Shown here piece by piece: positions 15,213 to 40,211 of a stretch of 40,883 nucleotides of DNA. Made by a program: the position numbers and the translations under genes. Numbering within the stretch: position 1 is the first letter of the stretch; every line of letters starts with the position of its first letter. The DNA is from a virus. The stretch lies in the UHGV virus genome UHGV-0848487, one strand, 5' to 3'. Below the pieces are notes generated by a model that ran no database searches, had not been told where the DNA came from, and saw nothing but the letters and a program-made list of their open reading frames with translations.

Positions 15213-15241
15213 ATAGTAGCCTATTCTATCTTAGTGTGCAA
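15213..15241 (-). promoter_or_regulatory. sigma70-like promoter TTGCAC-N17-TACTAT (minus strand) overlapping GAATAG palindrome
   Basis: Minus strand TTGCACactaagatagaataggcTACTATtcattta; near-identical to promoters at 16507..16535 and 37733..37761. Confidence 0.5.
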
Positions 15242-16506: not shown

Positions 16507-16535
16507 ATAGTATCCTATTATGTTGGGGCGTGCAA
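16507..16535 (-). promoter_or_regulatory. sigma70-like promoter TTGCAC-N17-TACTAT (minus strand) overlapping GAATAG palindrome
   Basis: Minus strand TTGCACgccccaacataataggaTACTATtcactta, about 25 nt upstream of the 16472 gene. Confidence 0.5.
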
Positions 16536-16614: not shown

Positions 16615-16779
16615 CAGCGGAGTGAAGTACTCTCTACCTCACTCACGGCAACTATAGAAACTTTTAATTATCAGTGACTTATGAAGGAGGGTAAAATTTA
16701 AATAGACGGGGGCTTTCTTGCCACTTGCTGTTACTGGGATGAAACTTAGATACTAACGTTACCAAGAGTACTGTTTAGC

Positions 16780-16802
16780 GCCCCGCTTTAGGGCGGGGCT
16801 TT
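16780..16802 (+). terminator. hairpin GCCCCGC-loop-GCGGGGC followed by TTTA
   Basis: Near-identical to the element at 5353..5372 but in opposite orientation. Confidence 0.35.
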
Positions 16803-16956
16803 AAGTACCCGAGACTTAAGAATGATGTTTCTAAGTAATTCTGAATTAAGGTCCTTCGATACATTGATTTTACAGCTACATTTTATTTTGTCAATAGGTT
16901 GTGTTTGGCTATTGTAGGTGTTATAGTTGTTTCACTTGATAAAGAGGGCACGTAAA

Positions 16957-34080: not shown

Positions 34081-34577
34081 TGCATCGGGTCCCAAATTCG
34101 TGGAAACGTTGATTGTGCAGTTCCGTAGGCTTTAAGGAAACACCCCAGCCCGTCACCATAGCAACCGTACAAATCTGGCAGATTGTTAATCAGGCACTGG
34201 TTCTCAAGGTTCTGGAACGGCGATTTCTCAGCGGTTGCCGTGAAAGTAATCGTCCAGTTAATGCCGTCTTCGGTGGACTCGGCGATGGTGGACGTAATTG
34301 TTACCTGATAATCCTCAATACCCATGCCGAAGTCGTGCGCCATCCAGAAACTTGACGCACCGCCGTCGACTTTTTCGAGGAACGACAGAAACGCCTGCCG
34401 TCCCAGCGCGGATGTAATCAGGGTTACGCTTATTGGGAACACGTCGTAATATGTGTCACGACCCTGGCGCACCCCGCCACCGGCTAAATCTACACTCCAG
34501 ACGTTGTTACGTCTGGTCATTGAGTAGCCTTTCGATACAATTGGCTTAAGGCTACGTGGGAAATATAAGTCGCTCAT
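34077..34577 (-). CDS. minor tail protein (lambda M-like)
   Basis: 166 aa directly downstream of tape measure gene. Confidence 0.45.
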   Translation of the reverse strand: MSDLYFPRSLKPIVSKGYSMTRRNNVWSVDLAGGGVRQGRDTYYDVFPISVTLITSALGRQAFLSFLEKVDGGASSFWMAHDFGMGIEDYQVTITSTIAESTEDGINWTITFTATAEKSPFQNLENQCLINNLPDLYGCYGDGLGCFLKAYGTAQSTFPRIWDPMQ

Positions 34578-36850
34578 TACTTGAACCCCGGCGCGTTTCT
34601 TGTGGCCTTGCGGGCCTTGCTAATCTTACTGTTGCTGTTCTGCAAAGAGGCCGCCACTTGCTCTTCAATGATGATACGCAAACGGCCTTCATCATCTTGT
34701 TCAGTGGATACGTTGCCAATCTGAGAACTCGTGTTGTTTACGATGGTAACATTAGACGGTCCGGAAGAAGACCCGTTTTGCCCCATAATTTCTTTCATCT
34801 GCTGCGCGGTGCGAACACGCGATGCCCCCGCGGGCATGATAACCTCAGGTTTACCACGTTCGGCGATGGTGGAAGCCTGCCCCGCGGATAACTGACCGCC
34901 CTGTTCACGCGCAGATCTGATAGCGGAAATCTGCGCCATACCCGCCCCAACGGCAGCGGCGGCGGCTACAGGTGCCAGGAACGGACCGACTACAGGGATA
35001 GCTGCCGTGGACTTGTACGCCTCAATAGCTGCGGTGTATGTGGCTATAGTGGCCTGTACGATAGCGAATGCCTTATACGCACCAGAAGCCTCGCCCAAAG
35101 CCGAACCGATGTTTGAGGCCATGTTACCAAAGGCGGTTGCCGTCGCGTCGGCGCGTTTCGTGGCGTACTGCTCGTTGATGGCGTTAAGAGCGGCCTGATA
35201 CTGCTTCTCGCTAATCAAACCCTGCTCGCGGTACTTATCCGCTACCGCCAGTTTCTGCTGTTCCTGGATGTCGAGAAGCTCAAGCTCAGTAGCGTTCTGA
35301 CCCATAATCTGAGCCATGAAGTCGTCACCTTTCTGCTGCTTTTCCTGGGCTTCTTTCTGGCGTTTATCCAGTTCATCTTGTCGTTTTTTCCCGGCTTCGA
35401 GGACGATAGCTGTTTTAGCTTGTTCATATTCTTTCAGGGACAACGCGCCCTGGCTGTAGAACTCTTTTGCCTTAGCCAGTTTCTGCTGTTCCTGCGCGTC
35501 GATAGCCTTTAACTCGTCGTTGTTCTGACGGGCCAAAGTGTCGAGGTAATCTTGCGCCTGATTCCGCAATTGCTCTGCTTTCTTGGCGGCGGCTTTTGCT
35601 GCTTTATCGTCGGTTGTCCCCACCCCACCAGTTCCGCCCTTTTTATTAACAAGGCTGGCTAAGTCTATTTCTTGCTTCTTACGCTCGTTGTACTGCTTGC
35701 GCTGTTCCTCAATTTCTTTCTTACGCTGCTTAGACCTGTTGGTGATGGCCTGTGATTCGGCCTCGGCGCGTTTTATGCTGGCGGCGTATGCGGCGTCAGC
35801 TTCTGCGGTCAGGTTTTTAAATGTGAGTGCTGCCGTTTTGCTCGGATCAAACACGTCTGCGAGGGTCTGACCTAACGCTACGGCGTAATCGTCAATGCGC
35901 TGGAACCACGCAATAACCTCGTGAAACGTCTGCTGGATGTCAGGCAACCATTCACGGATAGCATCCGGTATAGTACCCAGCGAGTCTGACATATCCGCGG
36001 ATTTGTCCTCGGTATCGTATGCCAGGTCGTTTAAGGCATCAGAAATAAACTTGAATGATTCATTGAACAGTGTCACCCAATCCTGGAGCGTGGCGGCTAT
36101 CTCATTAGACGCAATGGCGTCGGTGAGTGCCGAAATAGCGTCTTCTGCCTTCGCGGCTTGCTCACCTACGGCGTCGCCGAAACCGGATTGCGCCACCGCA
36201 AGTACAAGGCCATCAAAGGAGTCCGCCAGGCTCGACAACTGACCGTCTAACGTCTTAGAGCGCGTCTCCATCGCCCCGGCGAAATCGGTGTTGCCGATGT
36301 TTAGCAGGTATTTCTGAATCTCTTCGGAGTTCTTTTTAACCGTGGTGGTGACGCCGCGGAACGTGAACGAAACGGTATCTGCCTGTTGGGAAGACTTGAT
36401 ACCGAACTCTTTCAGTCGCTCAAACTCAAAGGTACTGGCGTCGGCAACCGCCTCAATCATCTGATTAAGGTCTTTACCCATAGCCGCCGCGGTGTTGCCG
36501 TAGGAGATTAACGCCTCTTTGCTTGGGTTCAGGCCGAGGGCCACCAGCTTAGTAAAGCCTTCCACCGCCTGGTTAAGACCATATGGGGTTTCTTTTGCGA
36601 ACTGTTGCAGGACGCTGAAAGCCTTAGCCGCGTTCTCAGCGCTCCCGGTCATTGTGATGAGGCCGGAGTTCAGCTTATCGAAGTTGCGCTGGGAGTCCAC
36701 CAGCGCACTGAACACCTGTTTGGCAGTTTCCAGACTGACAACGGCAGCGGCGGCGGCCCCCGCGGCTTTGGTAAGCCCGTTCAGTTGTGATGTGGTTTTA
36801 TCGACGCCGGTCGATGATACTCGTACGATCAAGCTAGCGGTATCAGCCAT
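34577..36850 (-). CDS. tail tape measure protein
   Basis: About 757 aa, Ala/Gln/Lys/Glu-rich coiled-coil with Gly-rich C-terminal region; preferred ATG 36850. Confidence 0.8.
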   Translation of the reverse strand: MADTASLIVRVSSTGVDKTTSQLNGLTKAAGAAAAAVVSLETAKQVFSALVDSQRNFDKLNSGLITMTGSAENAAKAFSVLQQFAKETPYGLNQAVEGFTKLVALGLNPSKEALISYGNTAAAMGKDLNQMIEAVADASTFEFERLKEFGIKSSQQADTVSFTFRGVTTTVKKNSEEIQKYLLNIGNTDFAGAMETRSKTLDGQLSSLADSFDGLVLAVAQSGFGDAVGEQAAKAEDAISALTDAIASNEIAATLQDWVTLFNESFKFISDALNDLAYDTEDKSADMSDSLGTIPDAIREWLPDIQQTFHEVIAWFQRIDDYAVALGQTLADVFDPSKTAALTFKNLTAEADAAYAASIKRAEAESQAITNRSKQRKKEIEEQRKQYNERKKQEIDLASLVNKKGGTGGVGTTDDKAAKAAAKKAEQLRNQAQDYLDTLARQNNDELKAIDAQEQQKLAKAKEFYSQGALSLKEYEQAKTAIVLEAGKKRQDELDKRQKEAQEKQQKGDDFMAQIMGQNATELELLDIQEQQKLAVADKYREQGLISEKQYQAALNAINEQYATKRADATATAFGNMASNIGSALGEASGAYKAFAIVQATIATYTAAIEAYKSTAAIPVVGPFLAPVAAAAAVGAGMAQISAIRSAREQGGQLSAGQASTIAERGKPEVIMPAGASRVRTAQQMKEIMGQNGSSSGPSNVTIVNNTSSQIGNVSTEQDDEGRLRIIIEEQVAASLQNSNSKISKARKATRNAPGFK

Positions 36851-37232
36851 GATTTCTACCTTCAAAGATTGCTTCTAAGCCCATGATAATGTCTATCTCG
36901 AACAGGCTAAGCTGTTTTTGCGTAACATCGAGATAGGCTTTCAGGTCTTGCCACGTAACGGATTCTCTTGCGAACAATACTACAGCGTCCTCGCGCACGT
37001 GTCGCGTAAACTTAATGTCGCAGTACGTCTCGAAGGTGGATATAAAAAGGGGCGGGCATTCTGGCCCACCCCGTCGCGCTGCACGTTTTTTCTTATCGAT
37101 TACACCCATCGCGATAAGCGCCTGTTCGTGTCCGTCGGCTATAGAATCAAACTCTCTGATTTTATGCTTATCCACAAACTCATAGGTGGCGAACCTGTAC
37201 AGCGCGTCTACTTTTCCTGTAATGCTTTGCGC
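36843..37232 (-). CDS. tail assembly chaperone T-like ORF (candidate -1 frameshift extension of G)
   Basis: Frame is open from 37232, overlaps last 8 codons of the G-like gene in the -1 frame; ends 8 nt into the tape measure gene. Confidence 0.35.
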   Translation of the reverse strand, partial: AQSITGKVDALYRFATYEFVDKHKIREFDSIADGHEQALIAMGVIDKKKRAARRGGPECPPLFISTFETYCDIKFTRHVREDAVVLFARESVTWQDLKAYLDVTQKQLSLFEIDIIMGLEAIFEGRNHG

Positions 37233-37624
37233 TCAGCGTTATGGAACGCTGCTACCTGTGTGCCTAATGCCTTGAACTGGTCCAGCAATTTGTTAAATGC
37301 TTCTTTAGAGAAAGGCTCATCAAAGCTCCAGCCGTTTACGACTTCTGCCGCGAGTTGCCGGTTGAGGTCTTCCGCCAGTTCGTTAATAGCCAGGTTATAT
37401 TCAGTATAGTCGCCGGATTCTTTGGCGGCTTTTTCCAGTTCTTCGAAACGCGCCAACCCGCGACGGTACGAAATAATGAAAGCACGCCCCGCTTTAACGG
37501 CGACATCCGCATCGGGACTTACAACGTTAAGCCATTCACCGGAGTCTTCGCCGTTTGGCAGCAGAATGGGCATCTTCTTGCCTACCAGTGCTTTCTCTTC
37601 GAAATAAAAATCAGAAAGTTTCAT
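37208..37624 (-). CDS. tail assembly chaperone (lambda G-like)
   Basis: 138 aa acidic protein immediately upstream of T-like ORF and tape measure gene. Confidence 0.45.
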   Translation of the reverse strand: MKLSDFYFEEKALVGKKMPILLPNGEDSGEWLNVVSPDADVAVKAGRAFIISYRRGLARFEELEKAAKESGDYTEYNLAINELAEDLNRQLAAEVVNGWSFDEPFSKEAFNKLLDQFKALGTQVAAFHNAERKALQEK

Positions 37625-37732
37625 TCTTTAATCCTTTGGTTAAGAGGTTACAGGTTAACGATAAATGCGCCAGACGGGAACCACCCGCTTTTCGTGTGCG
37701 ACACTAGGCGCAAAATTATTCTACCACAATAC

Positions 37733-37761
37733 TTGCACACCCCAATATAATAGGGTACTAT
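37733..37761 (+). promoter_or_regulatory. sigma70-like promoter TTGCAC-N17-TACTAT driving plus-strand accessory island
   Basis: TTGCACaccccaatataatagggTACTATtcactta; near-identical to the minus-strand early promoters at 15213..15241 and 16507..16535. Confidence 0.55.
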
Positions 37762-37791
37762 TCACTTACACCAACAATGAAGGGGTTTAAA

Positions 37792-37983
37792 ATGTCCAGT
37801 TTACCAGTTTCCTTAATTCTGTTTGCACTGCTCGCTTATTTCGCGCCTTTCCTGGTTGCGTACTTCCGTAACCATAAAGCGAAGTTAGCGATATTCATGG
37901 CTAATCTGTTTCTTGGTTGGGTTCTGCTGCCGTGGGTATTTATCTTAATCTGGGCGTGCAACTCGAATGTCAAAGAGAAGTGA
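37792..37983 (+). CDS. superinfection-immunity-like small membrane protein
   Basis: Preferred ATG 37792 after AAGGGG; AYFAPFLVAYFRNHKAKLAIFMANLFLGWVLLPWVFILIWA resembles the small superinfection immunity protein family pattern. Confidence 0.55.
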   Translation: MSSLPVSLILFALLAYFAPFLVAYFRNHKAKLAIFMANLFLGWVLLPWVFILIWACNSNVKEK

Positions 37984-38020: not shown

Positions 38021-39151
38021 ATGGCCAGGAAGAAAATAACCGACGAACAGTTACAGGAAGAATTGAACGCCGGTATGAAGAATATCGACATCGCCCGTAA
38101 ATACGGCATCTCCGACCGCGTTATTCGTATCCGTAAAGCGAAGCTGGCTAAGAAAGGTGTAGGCCACGGGCGTGACGTTAGTTACCTTGTACCGGACGGC
38201 TACAAGATTAAAGGAACGTCATCACTGGTGGATGAGTTTGGCAACACCAAGTTGCAATGGGTTAAGACCGACACCGATGCCGAACGTCAGGTTGAATTGA
38301 TGAAAGCCGTAATCGAAGGCATGAAGTCGGAGATTACACCAGTTGCACCTGTTAAAGCCGTTCGCGCCAAACGAGACGACAAGCTACTCAACCTTTACAC
38401 TGTGTCTGATTTCCATCTCGGTATGCTGGCCTGGGCTGACGAGAGCGGCGACGACTGGGACATGAAGATTGCGGAAGACCTGTTCTCCCGCTGGTTCGAC
38501 GCAGCGTTCCAGAAAGCACCGGATGCCGGAACAGGAGTTATTAATCTGCTGGGCGACCTTGCGCATTTCGATAGTCTGGACGCCGTTACACCTGCCAGTG
38601 GTCATGTTCTTGACGCTGACACCCGCTATCAGAAACTTGTACGCTACATGATTCGTATGGTCCGCCGTGTCATTGATATGGCTCTCGTTAAACATAAAAA
38701 TGTTCGCTTGCTTATCGTGCAAGGTAACCACGACGAAAGCGGAATGATTTGGTTAGCTGAGATGTTTAGTACGCTGTACGACAATGAGCCGCGTGTGTTC
38801 GTCGATACGTCGCCGGATGTTTACAAGATGGTGCAACACGGCAAAACGACGCTGTTCTTCCATCATGGGCATAAAGCACGATTCGACGCTATCGAACCGG
38901 TTATGATCGCCAAGTTCCGCAAAGCGTTCGGCGAGAGTGTTTACAGCTACGCCCACGTGGGTCACCTGCACCACCAAAAGATTGTAGAAAGCCGTAACAT
39001 GATTGTTGAGCAACACCGCACTCTCGCGGCTAAAGATGCATATGCCTCCCGCGGTGGGTGGATGTCGGGCCGCAGTGCAAACGTAATTACTTATAGCGCC
39101 GAATATGGCGAGGTCGCACGTTTAACTATTTCACCGGAGATGCTTGGATGA
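38021..39151 (+). CDS. HTH domain fused to calcineurin-like metallophosphoesterase
   Basis: N-terminal GMKNIDIARKYGISDRVIRIRK HTH-like; phosphoesterase motifs DFH, LLGDLAHFD, GNHDE, FHHGH, GHLHH in order. Confidence 0.7.
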   Translation: MARKKITDEQLQEELNAGMKNIDIARKYGISDRVIRIRKAKLAKKGVGHGRDVSYLVPDGYKIKGTSSLVDEFGNTKLQWVKTDTDAERQVELMKAVIEGMKSEITPVAPVKAVRAKRDDKLLNLYTVSDFHLGMLAWADESGDDWDMKIAEDLFSRWFDAAFQKAPDAGTGVINLLGDLAHFDSLDAVTPASGHVLDADTRYQKLVRYMIRMVRRVIDMALVKHKNVRLLIVQGNHDESGMIWLAEMFSTLYDNEPRVFVDTSPDVYKMVQHGKTTLFFHHGHKARFDAIEPVMIAKFRKAFGESVYSYAHVGHLHHQKIVESRNMIVEQHRTLAAKDAYASRGGWMSGRSANVITYSAEYGEVARLTISPEMLG

Positions 39152-39633
39152 AAGATATTGTGATTTTCGATTTAGACGGGACATTGGCAGATGGTACTCA
39201 TCGTTTACACCTGCTGCCGAAAGATAACTACGGCGAAACCTGTGCGTGGAAACCATTTAACATGGCGTGCAAAGACGATGCACCCATTAAAGATAACATC
39301 GAACTGTGTAACGCCCTTAATCGTCGCTATGCCGTTATTATCTTAACAGGCCGTAGTGATGACGCGGAAAAAGAAACCAGAATGTGGTTGCAGCGCCACC
39401 GCGTCGAATTTTATCAGTTAATCATGCGCAGCAAACACGACAACAGAAAAGACATCGTAATTAAAGAAGAGGTGTTGCGTGCTATTGGGCCGGAGAGAAT
39501 CTTGTGTGCATTCGACGACTCTCCAGCGGTAATAAAGCATTTCCGCGAACTCGGCATAACCACTCACGCAGTTACTGAATACGACTGTAACGGGAACTCT
39601 ACGCACTTAAAACCACATGGGAGTGATAAATAA
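39148..39633 (+). CDS. HAD-superfamily phosphatase
   Basis: Motif I FDLDGTL, motif II ILTGRS, motif IV FDDS; 161 aa. Confidence 0.7.
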   Translation: MKDIVIFDLDGTLADGTHRLHLLPKDNYGETCAWKPFNMACKDDAPIKDNIELCNALNRRYAVIILTGRSDDAEKETRMWLQRHRVEFYQLIMRSKHDNRKDIVIKEEVLRAIGPERILCAFDDSPAVIKHFRELGITTHAVTEYDCNGNSTHLKPHGSDK

Positions 39634-40187
39634 TGGCTAAGGTAATTATTCTTAATGGTCCTGCGGGCTGCGGGAAAGACACACTTGCTAGGGCGCTGGT
39701 AGAAATGGGCTTTGCGAAGGGTGTCGCCAGTTTCAAGAATCCGATGTTCAATATTGCTATGGCTGCGTTAGGCCAGGATGCTTACCGCGAGTTTCTCGAC
39801 GGCTACGACGACCGGGCGCGGAAAGAAAAGCCAGAGGGTTTCCTTAACGGGTTGTCTCGGCGTCAGTTCATGATTGCCATTTCCGAGCAATTCATTAAAC
39901 CGGTATTCGGTGATGATTATTTCGGTAAGTATCTTGCCGGAAACTTGCCCGACGGCGACGAAGTTTTTGTGGTGTCTGATGGCGGGTTCGCCAGCGAAGT
40001 AGCCCCTATCGTTGCCGCGGGGCATGATGTGAGAATCGTCCGCTTGCACAGAGACGGCCATACGTTTGAAGGGGACAGCCGCGGTTACCTGTACGATATT
40101 GATGGTGTAAAAGATTATGACACCTACATCATACCGGGTTACGTTAAATCGAACGCTATAGGCATTGCTTTAAGATTAGGCTTGTAA
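39633..40187 (+). CDS. P-loop nucleotide kinase (dNMP kinase-like; polynucleotide kinase not excluded)
   Basis: Walker A GPAGCGKDT resembling T4 gp1-type GKDT P-loop; 184 aa. Confidence 0.55.
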   Translation: MAKVIILNGPAGCGKDTLARALVEMGFAKGVASFKNPMFNIAMAALGQDAYREFLDGYDDRARKEKPEGFLNGLSRRQFMIAISEQFIKPVFGDDYFGKYLAGNLPDGDEVFVVSDGGFASEVAPIVAAGHDVRIVRLHRDGHTFEGDSRGYLYDIDGVKDYDTYIIPGYVKSNAIGIALRLGL

Positions 40188-40191
40188 GAAA

Positions 40192-40211
40192 AAGGCCCCA
40201 AACGGGGCCTT
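40192..40211. terminator. bidirectional intrinsic terminator at convergent junction
   Basis: AAGGCCCC-aaac-GGGGCCTT then agTTTTAT; same stem as 27666..27685 with complementary loop. Confidence 0.6.

What the first reader, a model, noticed from the sequence alone, without database searches (positions are those of the whole stretch)
37792..37983. Superinfection-immunity-like membrane protein as first gene of the island
The 63-aa product matches the pattern of small two-helix superinfection immunity proteins (hydrophobic helix, RNHK turn, LGW ... W ... IWA). It is placed directly after an early promoter, suggesting early exclusion of competing phages.
Basis: partly seen in the sequence, partly recalled or inferred. 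Interest (0 to 1): 0.45.

Follow-up and report, generated by a model that had tools for sequence, protein, structure and literature searches.

The report
T4 Imm-like superinfection immunity gene
This is a real, conserved 63-residue two-helix membrane protein of a K1G-like coliphage. It belongs to the same family as the phage T4 Imm superinfection-immunity protein and is already annotated that way in public phage genomes, so the finding is correct but ordinary.

Summary
The ORF at 37792-37983 (+) is real. It encodes a 63-aa two-helix hairpin protein that scores above threshold on Pfam PF14373 (48.6 bits, cutoff 27.9) and on PHROG 1039. T4 Imm hits the same model and aligns directly with it (28% identity, no gaps). 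It carries 12 of 13 family signature residues and is under purifying selection (dN/dS about 0.1).

The window is a Kagunavirus, 99.5% identical to vB_EcoS_fTaEco03. GenBank already labels this gene "superinfection immunity protein".

It is the promoter-proximal gene of a four-gene plus-strand unit inverted inside the tail operon. A conserved sigma-70-like promoter (TTGCAC-17-TACTAT, 37733-37761) precedes it, and a hairpin at 40192-40211 ends the unit. "Early" timing is not shown. The only RNA-seq study of a relative puts the gene in its late-peaking class.

New context: across 50 related contigs this position is a swappable cassette. It holds an Imm variant, an unknown exported protein, or a YebO-like protein resembling HK97 gp15. 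The occupant tracks the tape-measure type. In unrelated siphophages, Imm homologues sit between the chaperone and tape-measure genes, where HK97 gene 15 lies.

The most likely function is blocking DNA entry at the inner membrane. This is untested.

The parts
37792..37983 (+). imm-like CDS, 63 aa plus stop. It is a PF14373 / PHROG 1039 two-helix membrane protein.
37801..37866 (+). Codons 4-25, first hydrophobic helix (TM1). This is the allelic part: the Imm-A and Imm-B alleles differ here.
   Evidence: Hydropathy, AF2 helix 4-25, allele comparison
37867..37884 (+). Codons 26-31, basic loop RNHKAK. It is predicted to be cytoplasmic by the positive-inside rule. R26 and H28 are family-conserved.
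   Evidence: the topology is an inference
37885..37962 (+). Codons 32-57, second hydrophobic helix (TM2), carrying the N38-L39, G42-W43, W48 and W54 signature. It is identical in Imm-A and Imm-B kagunaviruses.
37780..37785 (+). Shine-Dalgarno sequence AAGGGG, 6 nt upstream of the ATG
   Evidence: sequence
37733..37761 (+). Conserved sigma-70-like promoter TTGCAC-17 nt-TACTAT. It drives the slot gene in all Guernseyvirinae loci examined, and the same 29-nt motif occurs three times in the window.
38021..39151 (+). Second gene of the unit: metallophosphoesterase / 'DNA repair exonuclease' with an N-terminal HTH-like region
39148..39633 (+). Third gene: HAD-type polynucleotide kinase/phosphatase-like protein
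39633..40187 (+). Fourth gene: deoxynucleoside monophosphate kinase-like P-loop protein
40192..40211 (.). Bidirectional G+C-rich hairpin AAGGCCCC-AAAC-GGGGCCTT. It ends the plus-strand unit and the converging tail-tube transcript.
37208..37624 (-). Tail assembly chaperone (G-like), divergent neighbour. Its allele co-varies with the slot-gene type.
34577..36865 (-). Tape measure protein, the proposed target of the exclusion protein. Its allele co-varies with the slot-gene type.
   Evidence: the target role is inferred

Best explanation
The gene encodes a small inner-membrane helical hairpin of the T4 Imm family. After infection, host RNA polymerase transcribes it from the conserved TTGCAC-17-TACTAT promoter as the first gene of a four-gene unit. 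The protein inserts into the cytoplasmic membrane, with the basic RNHKAK loop facing the cytoplasm and both short ends facing the periplasm. From there it prevents later-arriving phages of the same or related tail type from moving their DNA across the inner membrane. The most likely route is interference with the channel formed by the incoming tape measure protein or its membrane partner.

Shown here: family membership, hairpin architecture, purifying selection, promoter conservation and position in the transcription unit.

Inferred: membrane topology, time of expression, the exclusion activity, and the tape measure protein as target.
For: 1. Homology to the one characterised member:
- PF14373 scores 48.6 bits against a cutoff of 27.9.
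- phrog_1039 'immunity to superinfection' gives E 1.4e-22.
- T4 Imm scores 58.2 bits on the same model and aligns with this protein over 54 residues without gaps (28% identity, E 2e-10).
- The T4 record notes that Imm leaves superinfecting DNA in the periplasm. Imm and Spackle together confer superinfection exclusion (PMC7677548). Imm is a plasma-membrane protein (PMC6832632).

2. The protein has 12 of 13 family signature residues and a two-helix hairpin.

3. It is more conserved between Kagunavirus and Jerseyvirus than its neighbours: 69.5% against 50-55%. dN/dS is 0.10-0.14.

4. Positional replacement. In 50 distinct Guernseyvirinae contigs, the same promoter-proximal cassette holds:
- Imm variants in 35 contigs;
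- a signal-peptide protein of unknown function (phrog_14165) in 11;
- a single-pass membrane protein in 2, hitting PF13974 YebO at 24.3 and 20.1 bits (below the cutoff of 27). One of the two aligns with HK97 gp15 (29% over 52 aa, E 2e-4).
HK97 gp15 is an experimentally shown inner-membrane exclusion protein of the YebO family (PMC3594210). All alternative occupants are envelope-targeted.

5. Link to the tail module:
- The cassette type tracks the chaperone/tape-measure type in 40 of 44 contigs, but not the exonuclease type.
- In unrelated viral contigs, Imm homologues lie between the chaperone and tape measure genes. That is where HK97 gene 15 lies.
- Exclusion by gp15 and by Ltp depends on the incoming tail or tape measure protein (PMC3594210, PMC10883804).
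Against: - No experiment exists on any Guernseyvirinae Imm homologue; none was found.
- Identity to T4 Imm is only 28%, and T4 is a myovirus with a different injection apparatus.
- PF14373 is a very large family. There are 12,263 cluster representatives at E <= 0.001, including fusions to zinc ribbons, SHOCT and DnaJ domains. Not all members can be exclusion proteins.
- The only transcriptome of a relative puts the gene in a late-peaking class. That would be odd for a protein needed within minutes.
- The association with tape-measure type has exceptions (L012, L123, L131). It could reflect physical linkage and shared ancestry of the sampled contigs rather than function.
- There is no PADLOC or NCBIfam match.
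Confidence: 0.6

Rival explanations
1. It is a membrane protein that modulates envelope integrity or lysis timing of the infected cell, rather than blocking DNA entry. Possible roles are holin- or antiholin-like activity, or protection against lysis from without and secondary trauma.
For: [quoted passage not shown] Imm has also been said to resemble a holin (PMC6832632).
- The K1B4 transcriptome paper groups the homologue with late genes and calls it lysis-related.
- A two-helix hairpin with short ends superficially resembles class II holins.
Against: - The lysis cassette (two holin-like genes plus endolysin) and the spanin gene lie elsewhere in the genome of the 99.5%-identical relative.
- No holin family is hit; the only significant Pfam match is PF14373.
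- The slot is alternatively filled by a gp15/YebO-like protein and by an exported soluble protein. That fits an exclusion cassette better than a lysis function.
Confidence: 0.15
2. It is a generic PF14373 membrane module with another role. It might tether or regulate the adjacent metallophosphoesterase at the membrane, or counter a membrane-bound host defence that senses DNA injection.
For: - imm and the metallophosphoesterase gene are adjacent in both Kagunavirus and Jerseyvirus.
- PF14373 occurs widely in bacteria, fused to unrelated domains.
- Membrane-bound defences that act at the injection site exist (SNIPE, PMC13190303).
Against: - The exonuclease stays 93-99% identical while the slot gene is swapped for unrelated proteins.
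- Imm homologues in other phages lack this exonuclease as a neighbour.
- A defence acting at injection would already have acted before this gene is expressed.
Confidence: 0.12
3. The ORF is conserved but dispensable, with no measurable function under laboratory conditions, or it is poorly expressed.
For: - About a quarter of related contigs lack an Imm-family gene at this position.
- RP180's RefSeq record does not annotate it.
Against: - dN/dS is 0.10-0.14.
- There is a good Shine-Dalgarno sequence and a conserved promoter.
- A transcript was detected in K1B4 RNA-seq.
- Where Imm is absent, another envelope protein fills the slot.
Confidence: 0.05

Closest known systems
Phage T4 Imm (gp imm, NP_049660, 83 aa)
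   Same: - Same Pfam family PF14373 (58.2 and 48.6 bits).
- Direct ungapped alignment at 28% identity.
- Same two-hydrophobic-helix layout with a basic connecting loop.
- Same signature Y..P...A..R.H.....IF..NL..GW....W.....W.
- Encoded by a virulent phage.

   Different: - 20 residues shorter: it lacks the polar C-terminal tail (KKSAQPNQVIIIREKE) and seven N-terminal residues.
- It has P47 where the family has G.
- The host phage is a siphovirus whose DNA channel is built by a tape measure protein, not a contractile-tail myovirus.
- No Spackle homologue was identified.
- Timing and function are untested.
Phage HK97 gp15 (YebO-like moron, 62 aa)
   Same: - Small inner-membrane protein encoded next to the tail assembly chaperone and tape measure genes with its own promoter.
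- Proven to block DNA entry in a manner that depends on the incoming tail (PMC3594210; position).
- Two Guernseyvirinae contigs carry a YebO-like protein in exactly the slot that imm occupies here.
- Imm homologues in other siphophages sit between chaperone and tape measure, as gene 15 does.
   Different: - Unrelated sequence family (PF13974).
- One transmembrane helix instead of two.
- Expressed from a prophage, whereas this phage is virulent.
- The window protein itself has no PF13974 match.
P22 SieA, Tuc2009 Sie2009 and TP-J34 Ltp
   Same: Phage-encoded membrane or membrane-anchored proteins that block DNA injection after adsorption. For Ltp the target is the tape measure protein (PMC10883804).
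   Different: No sequence relationship. They are prophage-expressed, and Ltp is a lipoprotein.
T5 Llp and Cor (phi80, N15, T1)
   Same: Exclusion proteins made by siphophages, including the virulent T5.
   Different: They are lipoproteins or outer-membrane-directed proteins that inactivate the FhuA receptor (PMC9586334 listed; PMC3594210). They act at adsorption, not at the inner membrane, and have no sequence similarity.

Membership tests
Pfam PF14373 Imm_superinfect / T4 Imm family | Profile HMM score above the curated gathering threshold | tested here: met
   48.6 bits against a cutoff of 27.9, E 7.5e-13, residues 16-56 covering model positions 2-42 of 42. phrog_1039 gives E 1.4e-22.
Pfam PF14373 Imm_superinfect / T4 Imm family | Detectable similarity to the experimentally characterised founder, T4 Imm | tested here: met
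   T4 Imm hits PF14373 at 58.2 bits. BLASTP gives 28% identity over 54 aa with no gaps, E 2e-10.
Pfam PF14373 Imm_superinfect / T4 Imm family | Signature residues Y, P, A, R, H, I, N-L, G-W, G-W, W | tested here: met
   12 of 13 are present. The exception is P47, where 140 of 150 representatives have G.
Pfam PF14373 Imm_superinfect / T4 Imm family | Two hydrophobic helices forming a hairpin | tested here: met
   Hydropathy peaks at residues 4-25 and 32-57. AF2 gives helices 4-25 and 29-62, pLDDT 80.
Pfam PF14373 Imm_superinfect / T4 Imm family | Location in the cytoplasmic membrane | not testable with these tools
   Only predicted from hydrophobicity. The cytoplasmic loop is inferred from the three basic residues R26, K29 and K31.
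T4 Imm-type superinfection exclusion (function) | Expression within the first minutes of infection | tested here: inconclusive
   The conserved sigma-70-like promoter is shared with two small-ORF clusters. However, the K1B4 RNA-seq places the homologue in the late-peaking class.
T4 Imm-type superinfection exclusion (function) | The protein alone blocks DNA entry of homologous phages without blocking adsorption | not testable with these tools
   No published test for any Guernseyvirinae homologue was found.
HK97 gp15 / YebO-like exclusion proteins (PF13974) | PF13974 profile match | tested here: not met
   The window protein has no PF13974 hit, while gp15 scores 35.4 bits. Only the alternative slot occupants in L100 and L108 hit it, below threshold.
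HK97 gp15 / YebO-like exclusion proteins (PF13974) | Small membrane protein gene next to the tail chaperone and tape measure genes with its own promoter | tested here: met
   The gene is divergent from the chaperone gene, 167 bp away, with its own promoter. This is a positional analogy only.
Holins (class II) | Gene in the lysis cassette next to the endolysin, with a holin family match | tested here: not met
   Holin-like genes and the endolysin lie elsewhere in the near-identical genome. There is no holin Pfam hit.
Moron (independent transcription unit added to a phage genome) | Own promoter and terminator flanking the gene, with deviant base composition | tested here: inconclusive
   It has its own promoter and a GC content of 44% against 51% for the window. 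However, the terminator follows only after three more genes. In contig L100 the slot gene stands alone and is followed by a hairpin.

The most novel reading that the evidence does not exclude
The promoter-proximal position next to the chaperone and tape measure genes is a hot-swappable exclusion cassette. Its occupant is one of four types: Imm-A, Imm-B/J, an exported phrog_14165 protein, or a YebO/gp15-like protein. In this reading, the occupant is matched to the phage's own tape-measure type, and T4-Imm-family proteins exclude siphophages by recognising the incoming tape measure protein in the inner membrane. That would give the Imm family its first molecular target. It would also identify phrog_14165 as a new periplasmic exclusion protein.
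Probability: 0.3. Interest if true: 0.55.

Novelty: already known. Interest (0 to 1): 0.3.

Why it matters
As an annotation, this adds nothing new. Identical proteins are already labelled 'superinfection immunity protein' in GenBank and PHROGs.

It matters modestly for two reasons.

1. Kagunaviruses are used as therapeutic K1-capsule phages. An exclusion gene would affect cocktail design and co-infection.

2. The mechanism of the Imm family is still unknown more than 30 years after its discovery. These small siphophages offer a simple system to address it:
- natural allelic series (Imm-A, Imm-B, Imm-J, non-Imm occupants);
- natural recombinants between cassette type and tape-measure type;
- a direct way to test whether the tape measure protein is the target.

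Tried and rejected
- **PADLOC and NCBIfam scans** of the protein gave no hits.
- **PDB sequence search** with the family profile found no solved relative.
- **Word-indexed protein searches** reached only close relatives and T4-like Imm proteins. The exhaustive profile search was needed to see the size of the family.
- **Literature searches** for PF14373 or Imm_superinfect found only incidental mentions. The original T4 Imm papers and Cumby 2012 are not held.
- **The perfect TATAAT at 37746-37751** is not the -10 element. It is not conserved in Jerseyvirus and lacks a -35 at the right distance.
- **The alternative start at 37777** has no Shine-Dalgarno sequence and is absent in several relatives.
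- **The 41-aa ORF at 37665-37790**, annotated in fTaEco03 as 'similar to N-terminus of superinfection immunity protein of phage Sciku', overlaps the promoter and the conserved RNA-like element. It is most likely not a gene.
- **Holin hypothesis** was rejected on location.
- **Strict one-to-one match between the Imm TM1 allele and tape-measure type** was rejected. Recombinants L012, L123 and L131 exist, and Imm-B and Imm-J share one tape-measure type.
- **Transcriptome details.** The supplements of PMC12645636 hold no per-gene expression values.
- **A further literature search** for Guernseyvirinae transcriptomics returned nothing relevant.

Full report
**What the window is.** A 2.2-kb stretch around the finding is 99.5% identical to Escherichia phage vB_EcoS_fTaEco03 and 97.9% identical to phage K1G (Guernseyvirinae, Kagunavirus). 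199 phage records match it. In those records the gene under study is already called 'superinfection immunity protein', 'immunity to superinfection' or 'putative immunity protein'.

**The observation.**
- The ORF runs from the ATG at 37792 to the stop ending at 37983 and encodes 63 residues.
- A Shine-Dalgarno sequence AAGGGG (37780-37785) lies 6 nt upstream.
- An in-frame ATG at 37777 has no ribosome-binding site and is missing in several relatives, so 37792 is the start.
- Hydropathy shows two hydrophobic segments, about residues 4-25 and 32-57. They are separated by RNHKAK, which holds three of the five basic residues, Lys or Arg.
- AlphaFold2 on a 26-sequence alignment gives helices 4-25 and 29-62, with mean pLDDT 80.
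- By the positive-inside rule the loop should face the cytoplasm and both short ends the periplasm. This is an inference.

**Family membership.**
- Pfam PF14373 (Imm_superinfect) is hit at 48.6 bits against a gathering score of 27.9.
- PHROG 1039, 'immunity to superinfection', is hit at E 1.4e-22.
- To check that the family name rests on real homology, I fetched the T4 imm gene. Its product scores 58.2 bits on the same model. It aligns with the window protein over 54 residues without a gap (28% identity, pairwise E 2e-10).
- An exhaustive profile search finds 12,263 cluster representatives at E <= 0.001.
- Across the 149 best of these plus the window protein (150 sequences), the near-invariant positions are Y16, P19, A23, R26, H28, I34, N38, L39, G42, W43, G47, W48 and W54. 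The window protein has all of them except position 47, which is P.
- No member has a solved structure.
- Longer members are fused to zinc ribbons, SHOCT or DnaJ domains. The domain is thus a widespread two-helix membrane module, and only T4 Imm has been characterised.

**Is it a functional gene?**
- Between this phage and Jerseyvirus SP-101 the protein is 69.5% identical. The flanking exonuclease, chaperones and tape measure are 50-55% identical.
- For codons 16-63, dN/dS is 0.10 (against fEg-Eco19) and 0.14 (against S528). Synonymous sites are saturated against SP-101.

**Transcription unit.**
- The gene is the first of four plus-strand genes:
  1. imm (37792-37983);
  2. a metallophosphoesterase with an HTH-like N terminus (38021-39151);
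  3. a HAD-type polynucleotide kinase/phosphatase-like protein (39148-39633);
  4. a dNMP-kinase-like protein (39633-40187).
- These four genes lie inverted between the minus-strand tail tube gene and the minus-strand chaperone/tape-measure genes.
- A G+C-rich hairpin at 40192-40211 can terminate transcripts from both directions.
- The 167-bp divergent spacer is better conserved between Kagunavirus and Jerseyvirus than the coding DNA on either side.
- The conserved plus-strand elements are TTGCAC (37733-37738), a 17-nt spacer, and TACTAT (37756-37761). Jerseyvirus has TTGCAT-17-TATTAT.
- The perfect TATAAT at 37746-37751 is not conserved.
- The same 29-nt motif occurs twice more in the window, at 16507-16535 and 15213-15241 on the minus strand. 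Each copy heads a run of small ORFs. That makes three matches against 0.21 expected by chance.
- The promoter is thus one of a class, is sigma-70-like, and is probably co-regulated with the other copies.

**Is it 'early'?** This is not shown. The one transcriptome of a close relative is vB_Eco_K1B4 (91% identical; PMC12645636).
- It places the homologue (gene 045, next to chaperone gene 046) among 11 genes peaking at 110-120 min, together with DNA polymerase and two methylases.
- Tail genes fall in its 'middle' class.
- Only four genes are called early.
- The sampling is coarse and the authors' stated optimal MOI was 100. I read this only as evidence that imm is regulated differently from the adjacent tail genes, and as a caution against calling it early.

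**The slot is a cassette.** I collected 50 distinct Guernseyvirinae contigs from IMG/VR through the protein and through an invariant 19-mer of the spacer. The first gene after the promoter is:
- the window-type Imm (Imm-A) in 14 contigs;
- Imm-B in 9, with a replaced 5' UTR and TM1 but an identical C-terminal 38 residues;
- the 59-aa Jerseyvirus form (Imm-J) in 12;
- a roughly 108-aa protein with a signal peptide in 11 (phrog_14165, no Pfam match; also gp25 of phage Jersey);
- a single-pass membrane protein in 2;
- undetermined in 2, because the locus is cut.

The two single-pass proteins hit PF13974 (YebO-like) at 24.3 and 20.1 bits, below the cutoff of 27. One of them aligns with HK97 gp15 (29% over 52 aa, E 2e-4), and gp15 itself scores 35.4 bits.

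The cassette has clear boundaries:
- The left boundary is directly after the -10/+1 region (TACTATTCAC).
- The right boundary is about 30 nt before the exonuclease start (ATAGGACAAATCCTAAACACGAGGAA).
- The exonuclease stays 93-99% identical whatever the occupant.

HK97 gp15 is an inner-membrane protein of the YebO family. It excludes HK97 and HK75 at DNA entry, depending on features of the incoming tail. Its gene lies between the chaperone and tape measure genes (PMC3594210; position confirmed). Two of the three kinds of occupant are therefore homologues of proven DNA-entry exclusion proteins, and all are envelope-targeted. This is the strongest contextual argument for an exclusion function.

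**Link to the tape measure.** Clustering the chaperone and tape measure proteins gave these pairings:

| Slot type | Chaperone / tape-measure type (contigs) |
|---|---|
| Imm-A | window type (11), one exception |
| Imm-B | Jersey-like type (8; chaperone 93% and tape measure about 80% identical to Jerseyvirus), one exception |
| Imm-J | Jersey-like type (9), one exception |
| Exported protein | two further, related tape-measure types (11) |
| YebO-like proteins | other types (2) |

- The cassette type does not track the exonuclease type.
- The pattern fits exclusion proteins that act on the tape measure, as shown for Ltp and suggested for gp15 (PMC10883804).
- The same pattern is also what close linkage and shared ancestry would give. 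The recombinants show that any match is not obligatory.
- Independently, in unrelated viral contigs, Imm homologues (41-59% identical) lie between a chaperone gene and a tape measure gene on the same strand. Examples are L045, L049, L054, L060, L067, L076, L082 and L084-L086. At least 10 of 58 non-Guernseyvirinae loci show this, detected with only three tape-measure queries.

**Rivals.**
- A lysis or holin role is unlikely, because the holin-endolysin cassette is elsewhere and no holin family is hit.
- A role tied to the neighbouring metallophosphoesterase is unlikely, because that gene is indifferent to the slot's content.
- A non-functional ORF is excluded by the selection signal.

**Verdict.** The identification as a T4-Imm-like protein at the head of the inverted unit is correct and already in the databases. 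The 'early' label and the exclusion activity remain inferences. I put about 0.6 on exclusion at the inner membrane. I put about 0.3 on the more specific idea that the cassette is matched to the tape-measure type.

Noticed in passing
window 37650-37714 (-): The conserved core of the divergent spacer matches Rfam RF02996 (int-alpA RNA) on the minus strand at 31.8 bits (gathering score 35.8, E 1.5e-4). It also matches in RP180 (33.8 bits), fEg-Eco19 (32.3) and SP-101 (28.8). It would lie in the 5' leader of the chaperone/tape-measure mRNA. The three-helix structure is 96% paired in 7 sequences, with compensatory changes at 4 pairs (for example GUGU/ACAC against CGGU/ACCG). The folding energy is not unusual (z -0.53)..
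   Followed up: partly
window 37718-37726 (-): Minus-strand extended -10 element TGGTAGAAT for the chaperone/tape-measure operon. Across 7 relatives the TG and TA are invariant, while the base between them takes all four values. It overlaps back-to-back with the plus-strand imm promoter, so the two may compete for RNA polymerase.
   Followed up: partly
window 16507-16535 (-) and 15213-15241 (-): Two further copies of the 29-nt promoter motif CTTGCAC-N17-TACTATTCAyTTA. Each heads a run of small ORFs, and the spacer is also similar among the copies. This hints at a shared regulator site.
   Followed up: partly
L092, L094, L099, L102, L104, L110, L117, L119, L124, L125, L135 (same slot as window 37792-37983); also Salmonella phage Jersey gp25: A roughly 108-aa protein with a signal peptide and two conserved cysteines (phrog_14165, no Pfam match) replaces imm in 11 of 50 related contigs. 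The AF2 model is all-helical (pLDDT 77, pTM 0.70) with no convincing structural neighbour. It is a candidate new periplasmic exclusion protein.
   Followed up: partly
L100 and L108 (same slot): Single-pass membrane proteins with sub-threshold PF13974 (YebO-like) matches. One of them resembles HK97 gp15. In L100 the gene stands alone, is followed by a hairpin terminator, and no exonuclease gene follows.
   Followed up: partly
L022-L028, L133 versus window 34577-37624: Kagunaviruses with the Imm-B allele carry a Jerseyvirus-like chaperone (93% identity) and tape measure (about 80%). Their spacer, the 3' part of imm and the exonuclease remain Kagunavirus-like. This is a patchwork with a joint inside imm, near the loop codons.
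   Followed up: partly
window 37665-37790 (+): A 41-aa ORF is annotated in fTaEco03 (TE3_021) as similar to the N terminus of the Imm of phage Sciku. It overlaps the promoter and the int-alpA-like element, so it is probably an annotation artefact.
   Followed up: no
window about 16775-16894 (-): In the 450-bp non-coding region upstream of the small-ORF cluster there is a near-consensus TTGACA-16-TAAAAT promoter. It is followed about 70 nt later by a G+C-rich hairpin (AGCCCCGCCCTAAAGCGGGGCGCT). This could be a short leader or a small RNA.
   Followed up: no
window 36843-37624 (-): The tail assembly chaperone pair has the usual overlapping G and G-T arrangement. Relatives annotate it as a joined, frameshifted product.
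   Followed up: no
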